From Escherichia coli (GTDB lineage: Bacteria > Pseudomonadota > Gammaproteobacteria > Enterobacterales > Enterobacteriaceae), in NCBI RefSeq assembly GCF_003018235.1, contig NZ_CP027437.1: a DNA stretch of 64,000 bases. One strand, given 5' to 3'. This document shows, in pieces, positions 22,608 to 23,277 of the stretch; position 1 is the stretch's first letter; every line of letters begins with the position of its first letter. Made by a program: the position numbers.

Positions 22608-23277
22608 TGATGGGCGGTATTCTGAAACGGCGATTGTCGTGAGAACAGAATGGTTGCACCAGAATACAGATATAAAAAAACCGACATGACAGTCGGTTTT
22701 TTTATTTTTTCCGCCCAAGACTTGGTGGTTCCGGGCAGAAATGAAACAGTCCTCATCTAGCAAGTGAATTATAAGTCAGGATGCCTACATATTCAAACAG
22801 CTATGTTGGCGATACAATCCCGACGCTAGTAGTGATACTGCCTCAAGGGATTACCGCAGTGCGGAAAAGTACTTTTAAGTCCTGGTCAGGATACAGGTGG
22901 TGCTGATTCTGGTGCTCTAATTTGGAGAGAGGCAGTCCTCATCTAGCACATGAAGAAAATCATAGTTACAGGCAACGTAAGGGTAAGCTGTGATTGTCTT
23001 TCTCCCTTAAGGGAGCAACGGATGAAAACTTTTCTCGATAAAGTTCTCATCGTTCTTAAGGCGCTAATCGCGCTGCTGGAACTGATTCGTCAGTTTATTG
23101 AATAACTGAGGAAACGTAGCTAAGGCCGAAGGTTTACCACCTTCGGCCTTTAAAAAAACCGACATGACAGTTGGTTTCATATTTATTGCCAAAATGCATA
23201 CTGTTCATGCCAGATGCGGCGTAAACGCCTTATCCGGCCTACACAATCTTGCAAAATCAATATATTGCACGCTCTTC

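What the first reader, a model, noticed from the sequence alone, without database searches (positions are those of the whole stretch)
22674..23180. Type I toxin-antitoxin-like module: DinQ-like 27-aa peptide plus divergent sRNA with a 16-nt perfect match to the toxin leader
A 27-codon ORF not in the six-frame track encodes MKTFLDKVLIVLKALIALLELIRQFIE, sharing the ALIALLELIR core with the DinQ membrane toxin as I recall it. Its SD (gggag) can be sequestered by the adjacent ctccc. Upstream and divergent, a consensus-like promoter would drive an ~88-nt RNA ending at the selU terminator. Its first 15-16 nt are complementary to plus 22933-22948 in the toxin 5' leader. This is the organisation of dinQ/agrB and zor/orz loci, but at a site where K-12 has none. 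I saw no LexA box.
Basis: partly seen in the sequence, partly recalled or inferred. Interest (0 to 1): 0.7.

Follow-up and report, generated by a model that had tools for sequence, protein, structure and literature searches.

The report
Second DinQ/AgrB toxin–antitoxin locus
This is a real small-toxin/antisense-RNA (type I toxin-antitoxin) module, but it belongs to the already described DinQ/AgrB ("dinQ-like") family and its toxin gene is already annotated in over a thousand E. coli genomes, so it is an ordinary, known kind of element.

Summary
Window 23022-23105 (+) encodes the 27-aa peptide MKTFLDKVLIVLKALIALLELIRQFIE. It passes NCBI's curated DinQ model (40.9 bits, cut-off 30). Window 22672-22760 (-) passes Rfam's AgrB model (53.6 bits, gathering 40).

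The whole 0.5-kb module aligns with the K-12 dinQ-agrA locus at 76% column identity. The 16-nt repeat (22747-22762 = 22933-22948) is exact and unique in the window. It extends to a 24-bp sRNA:leader duplex. In silico the 5' UTR reproduces the published dinQ switch: 5' lock stem, SD/anti-SD hairpin, and an alternative 2:3 pairing that the sRNA blocks.

RefSeq already annotates this ORF as "dinQ" next to mnmH. About 1,314 of 5,426 complete E. coli genomes carry the locus, about 1,130 of them full-length. Nearly all also have the canonical dinQ at gor. The dinQ-like (dql) family was defined in 2016, and plasmid dqlB/agrB was validated in 2025.

Differences from canonical dinQ:
- no LexA operator, so the "damage-inducible" label is probably wrong here;
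- one sRNA rather than two;
- a co-varied seed/target pair that looks orthogonal to agrB/dinQ;
- the sRNA is unannotated.

I found no experimental study of this particular locus. Verdict: known family, low novelty.

The parts
22672..22761 (-). AgrB-like antisense sRNA (predicted antitoxin), about 88-90 nt. It has a 5' seed, an internal hairpin and a terminator hairpin.
   Evidence: Rfam RF02891 AgrB scores 53.6 bits (gathering 40) over model positions 1-84 of 84. The fold is shown. The start is inferred from the -10 spacing and from homology to the mapped agrB +1.
22768..22796 (-). Sigma-70-type promoter of the sRNA: TTGAAT-17 nt-TATAAT.
   Evidence: 10 of 12 consensus matches, and the only promoter-like site in 22550-23400.
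22672..22705 (.). Bidirectional intrinsic terminator shared by mnmH/selU (+) and the sRNA (-).
   Evidence: a 14-bp perfect stem with T-runs on both strands.
22790..22818 (+). Predicted toxin promoter: -10 TACAAT at 22813-22818 and a weak -35 TATTCA at 22790-22795. It lies back-to-back with the sRNA -35.
   Evidence: The -10 and the +1 G align column-for-column with the TATGAT and the mapped G+1 of K-12 dinQ, and with the -10 elements of plasmid dqlB loci. The hexamers are shown. The -35 matches only 3 of 6, so the scan did not report it.
22825..23153 (+). Predicted primary toxin mRNA of about 330 nt, with a 197-nt 5' UTR.
   Evidence: Homology to the 331-nt dinQ +1 transcript. The consensus fold has 90 pairs, 23 of them with compensatory changes.
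22825..22844 (+). 5' 'lock' sequence (GCUAG...ACUGCCUC). It pairs with 22929-22947 to form the long stem S1 of the inactive full-length mRNA.
   Evidence: MFE fold of 22825-23150. The same stem appears in the 5-sequence consensus.
22924..22948 (+). sRNA target site in the leader, which also serves as 'sequence 2' of the switch. 22933-22948 is the exact 16-nt repeat of 22747-22762.
   Evidence: In the 5'-truncated fold, 22924-22937 pairs with 22992-23005.
22992..23015 (+). 'Sequence 3' with the anti-SD (CTCCC, 23002-23006), and 'sequence 4' with the SD (GGGAG, 23011-23015). Together they form the SD-sequestering hairpin.
   Evidence: The hairpin is conserved, with CTCCAT/ATGGAG changing to CTCCCT/AGGGAG, across dinQ and dqlB loci.
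23022..23105 (+). Toxin ORF of 27 aa: MKTFLDKVLIVLKALIALLELIRQFIE.
   Evidence: NCBIfam NF041472 scores 40.9 bits against a cut-off of 30. The identical CDS is annotated dinQ (WP_349808740.1) in NZ_CP082355.1. The exact peptide occurs on at least 1000 contigs and is named DinQ.
23122..23150 (+). Toxin mRNA terminator hairpin, homologous to dinQ SL9.
   Evidence: Inverted repeat I5, 12 bp perfect. Compensatory changes relative to K-12 and the plasmid loci are shown.
23151..23190 (.). Degenerate second copy (83%) of the sRNA terminator and 3' end, of unclear origin.
   Evidence: Direct repeat D1. There is no AgrB hit here.

Best explanation
This is a chromosomal DinQ/AgrB-family ('dinQ-like', dql) type I toxin-antitoxin module. 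It sits between mnmH (selU) and ybbP and is a second copy alongside the canonical dinQ-agrAB locus at gor-arsR.

Inferred mechanism, by homology to the experimentally dissected dinQ system:
1. A weak sigma-70 promoter (-10 TACAAT) gives a primary mRNA of about 330 nt starting at G22825.
2. The 5' end of that mRNA pairs with 22929-22947 in a lock stem, so that CUCCC (23002-06) closes on the SD GGGAG (23011-15) and the mRNA is not translated.
3. Removal of the 5' end by processing frees 22924-22937 to pair with 22992-23005. This partly opens the SD and allows translation of a 27-aa hydrophobic inner-membrane peptide that would be toxic when it accumulates.
4. The divergent sRNA of about 88 nt is made from a near-consensus promoter, so it is probably constitutive. 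Its first ~24 nt pair with 22924-22947. This blocks the 2:3 pairing so that the SD hairpin re-closes, and probably makes an RNase III substrate.

Shown here: family membership of both genes, the anatomy, the complementarity, and the in-silico switch. Inferred: transcription, processing, toxicity, and antitoxin activity.

Unlike dinQ, the promoter has no LexA operator, so the module is probably not SOS-controlled.
For: - Toxin: NF041472 scores 40.9 bits, above the cut-off of 30. BLASTP against K-12 DinQ gives 15/19 identities, E = 3e-8.
- sRNA: RF02891 scores 53.6 bits, above the gathering score of 40, over the full model length.
- Collinear alignment to K-12 dinQ-agrA at 76% column identity, including terminator, ORF, SD hairpin, SL2/SL4 and the sRNA.
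- The -10 and +1 align with the mapped dinQ +1 and with the plasmid dqlB loci.
- The consensus fold of five loci recovers S1, SL1, SL2, SL4, the SD hairpin and the terminator. 23 of its 90 pairs show compensatory changes.
- SD accessibility, as mean P(unpaired). Window locus: 0.013 full-length, 0.17 5'-truncated, 0.012 truncated with the sRNA site blocked. K-12 dinQ control: 0.083, 0.216 and 0.019.
- Cognate specificity: in six of the eight sRNA rows of an 8-sRNA x 6-leader duplex matrix, the sRNA pairs best with its own leader. K-12 agrA is one exception, as expected: it pairs better with the B2-type dinQ leader allele of IHE3034. The truncated pETEC locus is the other, and pNDM5 ties with it. 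The window pair gives -47.3 kcal/mol, against -22 to -37 for foreign sRNAs on the window leader. Relative to agrB/dinQ, four positions of the 16-nt core have changed on both partners.
- Distribution: about 1,314 of 5,426 complete E. coli genomes carry the locus and about 1,130 have it full-length. It is annotated dinQ.
- Same site and 98% identity in Escherichia sp. E1V33, with only two ORF differences, both synonymous.
- Literature: dinQ mechanism (PMC3567139, PMC5066626); the dql family, including chromosomal copies that co-occur with dinQ (PMC5066626); toxicity and base-pairing-dependent antitoxin activity of plasmid dqlB/agrB (PMC12365149, PMC12317039).
Against: - There is no expression, toxicity or processing data for this locus.
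- The toxin -35 is poor (3 of 6), so transcription may be very low.
- The perfect transcribed complementarity is only 14-15 nt, or 24 bp with four G-U pairs and one mismatch, against 30/31 for agrB:dinQ. The cognate duplex energy (-47 kcal/mol) lies between functional agrB:dinQ (-58) and non-functional agrA:dinQ (-43).
- The peptide has K13 where DinQ has G10, and it lacks three C-terminal hydrophobic residues. DqlB, which is toxic, has R at that position and the same ELIRQFI(D/E) tail.
- About 184 carrier genomes have a 108-nt deletion that destroys the toxin, so the toxin is dispensable.
- The predicted opening of the SD after 5' truncation is only partial (0.17), as it also is for the K-12 control.
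Confidence: 0.85

Rival explanations
1. A decaying, functionally silent relic of a DinQ/AgrB module. The homology is real, but the toxin is no longer expressed or no longer toxic, and the sRNA is an orphan.
For: - The toxin -35 is weak, and the scan reported no plus-strand promoter.
- The perfect complementarity is shorter than in dinQ/agrB or pOXA-48 dqlB/agrB (PMC12365149).
- About 14% of carrier genomes have a 108-nt deletion that removes the target site, SD and start codon.
- Rare variants carry L-to-Q, R-to-L or E-to-K changes in the helix.
- A degenerate terminator copy at 23151-23190 suggests past rearrangement.
Against: - The ORF, SD, anti-SD, lock stem, both terminators and the near-consensus sRNA promoter are all intact.
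- The seed and target have co-varied rather than drifted apart.
- The in-silico switch behaves like the validated K-12 locus.
- The two ORF differences from Escherichia sp. E1V33 are both synonymous.
- The dinQ promoter of K-12 also lacks a good -35.
Confidence: 0.12
2. An SOS (LexA)-controlled 'damage-inducible' DinQ orthologue, as the RefSeq product name implies.
For: PGAP names it 'damage-inducible type I toxin DinQ'. The peptide passes the equivalog model NF041472.
Against: - The 20 nt that are positionally homologous to the dinQ LexA operator TACTGTATGATTATCCAGTT read GGCGATACAATCCCGACGCT.
- There is no CTG-N10-CAG anywhere in 22650-23200. The only one-mismatch cores are at 22654, 22764 and 22785, none at the homologous position, and the full 16-nt pattern with up to 2 mismatches occurs about once per 200 nt in the window.
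- The canonical dinQ with its LexA box is a separate locus, matched in 5,422 of 5,426 genomes.
Confidence: 0.04
3. A chance short ORF plus a chance 16-nt repeat in an intergenic region.
For: Short ORFs and terminator-like hairpins are common in intergenic DNA.
Against: - Two independent curated models, one protein and one RNA, pass their thresholds.
- The locus is homologous to dinQ-agrA along its whole length.
- The 16-mer occurs only at these two places in 64 kb.
- The duplex energy is far outside the shuffles.
Confidence: 0.01

Closest known systems
dinQ-agrA/agrB type I toxin-antitoxin locus of E. coli K-12 (arsR-gor intergenic region; Weel-Sneve 2013, Kristiansen 2016)
   Same: - A 27-aa peptide with the core (D)K-IVL-ALIALLELIR.
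- A divergent, non-overlapping sRNA of about 85 nt upstream, whose 5' end pairs with the toxin 5' UTR well upstream of the RBS.
- A long 5' UTR with a 5' lock stem, SL2/SL4 and an SD/anti-SD hairpin.
- Homologous terminators.
- 76% column identity over the aligned locus.
   Different: - No LexA operator.
- One sRNA instead of two.
- The seed/target sequence differs at 4 of 16 core positions on both partners, and cross-pairing is 10-27 kcal/mol weaker than cognate pairing.
- Shorter perfect complementarity.
- ATG start rather than GUG, three extra N-terminal residues and three fewer C-terminal residues.
- A different chromosomal site, present in only about 24% of E. coli genomes.
- The sRNA terminator doubles as the mnmH terminator.
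dql (dinQ-like) genes dqlA/dqlB of Enterobacteriaceae chromosomes and plasmids (Kristiansen 2016), including the validated plasmid dqlB/agrB addiction modules (pOXA-48 and IncX3; PMC12365149, PMC12317039)
   Same: - A DinQ-related peptide with the C-terminal ELIRQFI(D/E) tail.
- A basic residue at the position of DinQ G10.
- An AgrB-like sRNA upstream.
- No LexA box.
- The same 5' UTR architecture.
- The 2016 paper explicitly reports dql genes that co-occur with dinQ in the same strain.
   Different: - DqlB is 31 aa, with an extra AV(A/V)A(L/V)AN segment.
- The window peptide fails the DqlB model (24.5 bits against a cut-off of 35).
- It is chromosomal at a fixed site, not plasmid-borne. The best plasmid DNA matches are only 71-77% identical over part of the module.
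- I could not check whether it is one of the 14 published Dql peptides (probably the dqlA type), because the figure and supplements are not held.
zorO-orzO, tisB-istR1 and shoB-ohsC type I systems
   Same: The general layout: a small hydrophobic toxin, a long processed 5' UTR, and a divergent trans-encoded sRNA that pairs upstream of the RBS over about 18-21 nt.
   Different: No sequence relationship was detected. The OrzO-P Rfam hits scored 24 and 19.5 bits against a gathering score of 60 and reflect only the terminator. The peptide matches only the DinQ and DqlB models.

Membership tests
DinQ toxin (NCBIfam NF041472, equivalog) | The peptide scores above the curated whole-protein cut-off. 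| tested here: met
   40.9 bits against a cut-off of 30, over profile positions 1-22 of 22. 15/19 identity to K-12 DinQ.
DqlB toxin (NCBIfam NF041473) | The peptide scores above the curated cut-off. | tested here: not met
   24.5 bits against a cut-off of 35, and only the C-terminal half aligns.
AgrB antisense RNA (Rfam RF02891) | A covariance-model score at or above the gathering threshold, over the full length. | tested here: met
   53.6 bits against 40, over model positions 1-84 of 84, at 22672-22760 on the minus strand.
DinQ/AgrB type I TA system | The sRNA is encoded divergently upstream, does not overlap the mRNA, and its 5' end is complementary to the toxin 5' UTR upstream of the RBS. 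| tested here: met
   There are 63 nt between the predicted starts (22761 and 22825). The duplex is 24 bp at 22924-22947 and ends 63 nt upstream of the SD.
DinQ/AgrB type I TA system | Mutually exclusive 5' UTR pairings (1:2 with 3:4 versus 2:3) that close or open the SD, with sRNA binding re-closing it. | tested here: met
   This is an in-silico test only. Mean P(unpaired SD) is 0.013, 0.17 and 0.012 here, against 0.083, 0.216 and 0.019 for K-12 dinQ. The helices are supported by compensatory changes in a 5-locus alignment.
DinQ/AgrB type I TA system | The sRNA seed and the leader target co-vary between loci (cognate specificity). | tested here: met
   The cognate duplex is the strongest in six of the eight sRNA rows. 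K-12 agrA and the truncated pETEC locus are the exceptions.
Canonical dinQ (SOS regulon member) | A LexA operator that overlaps the promoter. | tested here: not met
   There is no CTG-N10-CAG in 22650-23200. The homologous 20-mer reads GGCGATACAATCCCGACGCT.
Canonical dinQ | [quoted passage not shown] | tested here: not met
   It lies between mnmH and ybbP with a single AgrB-like gene. The gor-linked locus is separate and nearly universal.
Type I toxin-antitoxin system (general) | The peptide is toxic on overexpression, and the toxicity is neutralised by the sRNA through base pairing. | not testable with these tools
   Shown for dinQ/agrB and for plasmid dqlB/agrB in the literature (PMC3567139, PMC12365149), but not for this locus.
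ZorO/OrzO | An Rfam OrzO-P hit at the gathering score, or a toxin related to ZorO. | tested here: not met
   OrzO-P scored 24.1 and 19.5 bits against 60. There was no ZorO family hit.

The most novel reading that the evidence does not exclude
The mnmH-linked copy is a functional DinQ paralogue that is independent of LexA. Its sRNA/leader pair is orthogonal to agrB/dinQ, so about a quarter of E. coli strains would run two insulated DinQ circuits, one triggered by the SOS response and one by an unknown signal or by processing alone. The RefSeq label 'damage-inducible' would then be a mis-transfer. Its position at the variable mnmH-ybbP junction, which the rhsD island occupies in K-12, could mean that it acts as a local stabilising (anti-deletion) module.
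Probability: 0.4. Interest if true: 0.3.

Novelty: already known. Interest (0 to 1): 0.15.

Why it matters
It matters little as a discovery.
- The family, its mechanism and its spread in Enterobacteriaceae are published.
- The toxin ORF is routinely annotated.

The useful residue concerns annotation and strain biology.
- The cognate AgrB-like sRNA is not annotated in the RefSeq records examined.
- The 'damage-inducible' product name is probably inappropriate for this paralogue, because it has no LexA box.
- Strains that carry it have two DinQ-type toxins with apparently non-cross-reacting antitoxins. That is relevant to anyone who deletes dinQ/agrB to study persistence or membrane depolarisation in non-K-12 strains.

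Tried and rejected
- Empty-site search. I joined 22560-22700 to 23179-23282 to ask whether any complete E. coli genome has a single terminator copy with no module. No single-piece full-length hit was found; the top hits were the occupied site in two pieces. The origin of the 40-nt flanking repeat therefore stays unexplained.
- Full-text search for the peptide string, its core, and 'dqlA'. No paper text prints the peptide, and the 'dqlA' hits were unrelated words. The supplements of Kristiansen 2016 are not held, so I could not confirm that this locus is among their 14 dql genes.
- PADLOC defence models gave no hit for this peptide or for K-12 DinQ.
- A LexA scan allowing 2 mismatches gave hits at about background frequency. 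The one hit in the promoter region (22785-22800, CTAC...ACAG) breaks the invariant CTG and is not at the homologous position.
- A degenerate back-translated N-terminal pattern, searched against 100,044 species-representative genomes, found only Escherichia sp. E1V33. This variant is therefore essentially confined to Escherichia/Shigella.
- The variation among the 51-aa cluster members was too low to test coding constraint.
- The ZorO/OrzO and other sRNA-family hits (STnc370, RNAI and others) are below threshold and are driven by the terminator hairpin.
- I treated the 51-codon ORF (22950-23105), which some records annotate, as less likely than the 27-codon ORF. Only the ATG at 23022 has an SD, and DinQ is known to be translated from the equivalent internal start (PMC3567139).

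Full report
**Setting**

The window is Escherichia coli. The local gene order is allS, then mnmH/selU (21516-22610, +), then the region in question, then an IS621 copy, then ybbP and ybbA on the minus strand. In K-12 the sequence diverges directly after the selU stop codon and the ylbG/rhsD island lies there instead.

**Check of the observation**

- ORF: it runs from ATG 23022 to TAA 23105 and translates exactly as reported.
- Ribosome-binding site: GGGAG (23011-23015) lies 6 nt upstream of the ATG. CTCCC (23002-23006) lies next to it with a TTAA loop between them.
- sRNA promoter: the only sigma-70-like promoter the scan reports in 22550-23400 is on the minus strand, TTGAAT-17-TATAAT at 22796..22768.
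- Terminator: about 88-90 nt downstream of that promoter's predicted start is a perfect 14-bp hairpin (22672-22705). It has T-runs on both strands and also sits 62 nt after the mnmH stop.
- 16-nt repeat: CAGTCCTCATCTAGCA occurs at 22747-22762 and 22933-22948 and nowhere else in the 64 kb.
- Extent of pairing: taken as RNA, the first 25 nt of the minus-strand transcript form 24 pairs with 22924-22947 (one mismatch, four G-U) at -39 kcal/mol. The first 40 nt give -55.5 kcal/mol, against -25.4 +/- 3.5 for 500 shuffles, whose best was -41.7.

**What it is**

Two independent curated models identify the two genes.
- The peptide scores 40.9 bits on NCBIfam NF041472 'damage-inducible type I toxin DinQ' (cut-off 30). 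It scores 24.5 bits on the DqlB model, below that model's cut-off of 35.
- Window 22672-22760 (-) scores 53.6 bits on Rfam AgrB (gathering 40) over the whole model. It is one of only two Rfam hits at gathering level in the entire window.

The 0.5-kb module aligns collinearly with the K-12 dinQ-agrA segment at 76% column identity. The aligned features, in order, are the sRNA terminator, the sRNA body, the divergent promoters, the 5' UTR, the SD hairpin, the ORF and the toxin terminator.

A five-locus alignment (this locus, K-12 dinQ, the B2-type dinQ of IHE3034, and two plasmid dqlB loci) gives two further points. It places the window's TACAAT (22813-22818) under the dinQ -10 element, and G22825 under the experimentally mapped dinQ +1. 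Its consensus fold recovers the published long 5' stem S1, SL1, SL2, SL4, the SD hairpin and the terminator. 23 of the 90 pairs show compensatory changes.

**How it most likely works**

Kristiansen et al. (PMC5066626, read) showed the following for dinQ.
- The full-length mRNA is locked by pairing of sequence 1 with sequence 2, which lets sequences 3 and 4 sequester the SD.
- Removal of the first 43 nt lets sequence 2 pair with sequence 3 and opens the SD.
- AgrB binds over sequence 2, which re-closes the SD and triggers RNase III cleavage.

The window locus has the same parts.
- The predicted 5' end (GCUAG...ACUGCCUC, 22825-22844) pairs with 22929-22947.
- In a 5'-truncated RNA, 22924-22937 pairs over 14 bp with 22992-23005, which includes most of the anti-SD.
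- The sRNA footprint (22924-22947) covers that sequence 2.

I measured the mean probability that the SD is unpaired. It is 0.013 for the full-length RNA, 0.17 for the truncated RNA, and 0.012 for the truncated RNA with the sRNA site blocked. The K-12 dinQ control gives 0.083, 0.216 and 0.019. In silico, the locus therefore behaves like the validated system. Transcription, processing, toxicity and antitoxin action remain inferences for this locus.

**Co-variation of antitoxin and target**

Rfam finds AgrB-like genes upstream of every related toxin I fetched. I built a matrix of duplex energies between eight sRNA 5' ends and six leaders.
- In six of the eight sRNA rows the cognate pair is the strongest. 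K-12 agrA is one exception, as expected; the truncated pETEC locus is the other, with pNDM5 tying it.
- The window pair gives -47.3 kcal/mol, against -22 to -37 for foreign sRNAs on the window leader.
- agrB:dinQ gives -58.2 kcal/mol, and the window sRNA on dinQ gives -37.6.

Relative to agrB/dinQ, four of the 16 core positions have changed on both partners. This argues that the pairing is under selection, and that the module is insulated from the canonical dinQ/agrB pair of the same cell. One caution applies. The cognate energy lies between that of functional agrB:dinQ and that of agrA:dinQ (-42.7), which is experimentally inactive.

**Difference from canonical dinQ**

The dinQ LexA operator TACTGTATGATTATCCAGTT overlaps the -10 element and +1. 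The positionally homologous window sequence is GGCGATACAATCCCGACGCT. No CTG-N10-CAG core exists anywhere in 22650-23200. The plasmid dqlB loci also lack the box. The module is therefore probably not SOS-regulated, and the RefSeq product name 'damage-inducible' is a transfer from the HMM rather than a property shown for this copy.

Other differences from canonical dinQ:
- a single sRNA rather than two;
- an ATG start rather than GUG;
- three extra N-terminal residues and three fewer C-terminal residues;
- K13 in place of G10;
- a DqlB-like ELIRQFIE tail.

**What is already known**

- Annotation: RefSeq/PGAP annotates exactly this 84-nt CDS as dinQ next to mnmH, for example WP_349808740.1 in NZ_CP082355.1.
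- Distribution of this locus: about 1,314 of 5,426 complete E. coli genomes carry it. About 1,130 of them have the full-length module.
- Canonical locus: the gor-linked dinQ locus is matched in 5,422 of 5,426 genomes, and 4,594 hold at least 80% of the query. Carriers of the mnmH-linked copy therefore almost always have two copies.
- Peptide: the exact sequence is on at least 1,000 contigs and is named 'MULTISPECIES: damage-inducible type I toxin DinQ'.
- Outside E. coli and Shigella: only Escherichia sp. E1V33 among 100,044 species-representative genomes has this variant. It has it at the same site, at 98% identity, with two ORF differences that are both synonymous.
- Family: the dinQ-like (dql) family, with subgroups dqlA and dqlB, occurs on chromosomes and plasmids and sometimes together with dinQ. 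It was defined in 2016. T1TAdb predicted the antisense RNAs of these loci.
- Experimental support in relatives: plasmid dqlB/agrB was shown to be toxic and to be controlled by base pairing in 2025.
- This locus: no paper in the searchable library prints this peptide or discusses the mnmH-linked locus. It looks uncharacterised experimentally, but it is not a new kind of thing.

**Verdict**

The novelty rating is 'already known': a known family whose toxin is already annotated. What remains of interest is small:
- the unannotated sRNA;
- the probable mislabelling as damage-inducible;
- the apparent orthogonality to dinQ/agrB;
- the toxin-deleting variants.

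Noticed in passing
window 23282-24559: A 1,278-bp IS621 (IS110-family) copy, with its transposase at 24367..23387 on the minus strand, is inserted into a REP element between the DinQ-like module and ybbP. The insertion is absent at the same site in strain MS14385 and in Escherichia sp. E1V33, and from most other carrier genomes, whose matches stop at window 23281.
   Followed up: partly
window 23151-23190 (compare 22673-22712): A 40-nt, 83%-identical second copy of the sRNA terminator and 3' end lies directly after the toxin terminator. 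It could be a remnant of a second sRNA gene or a footprint of how the module arrived. No genome with an 'empty' single-copy site was found.
   Followed up: partly
L004 (NZ_LR130555.1, strain MS14385) 1723-1732; equivalent to window 22934-23041: About 184 of the ~1,314 carrier genomes appear to have a 108-nt deletion between the short repeats AGTCCTCATC and AGTTCTCATC. It removes the sRNA target site, the SD, the start codon and the first 6-7 codons, while keeping the sRNA gene. The result is a toxin-dead locus with an orphan antitoxin, and no CDS is annotated there.
   Followed up: partly
L002 2064-2147 (K-12 agrA) versus L005 688-772 and 847-1052 (IHE3034): K-12 agrA is regarded as a degenerate, inactive copy. 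Its seed is the same as that of the single agr sRNA of B2 strain IHE3034, and it pairs almost perfectly (-54.9 kcal/mol) with the IHE3034 dinQ leader allele. It pairs less well (-42.7 kcal/mol) with the K-12 dinQ leader. agrA may therefore be the cognate antitoxin of a different dinQ allele rather than simple decay.
   Followed up: partly
window 9585-9651 (-): An Rfam hit to the enterobacterial sRNA STnc480 (87.1 bits, gathering score 72). It is the only other Rfam family at gathering level in the window.
   Followed up: no
L006 (plasmid pSM107_NDM) 268-790: The plasmid dqlB locus carries two AgrB-like sRNA genes (457-544 and 703-790). Only the proximal one pairs strongly with the dqlB leader. 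A sok antitoxin RNA lies immediately upstream (268-425).
   Followed up: no
window 22950-23105: Some public records annotate the 51-codon in-frame extension (MKKIIVTGNV...) as 'DinQ'. Only the internal ATG at 23022 has a Shine-Dalgarno sequence. Most of the upstream 24 codons overlie conserved structured parts of the 5' UTR (SL4 and the SD/anti-SD hairpin).
   Followed up: partly
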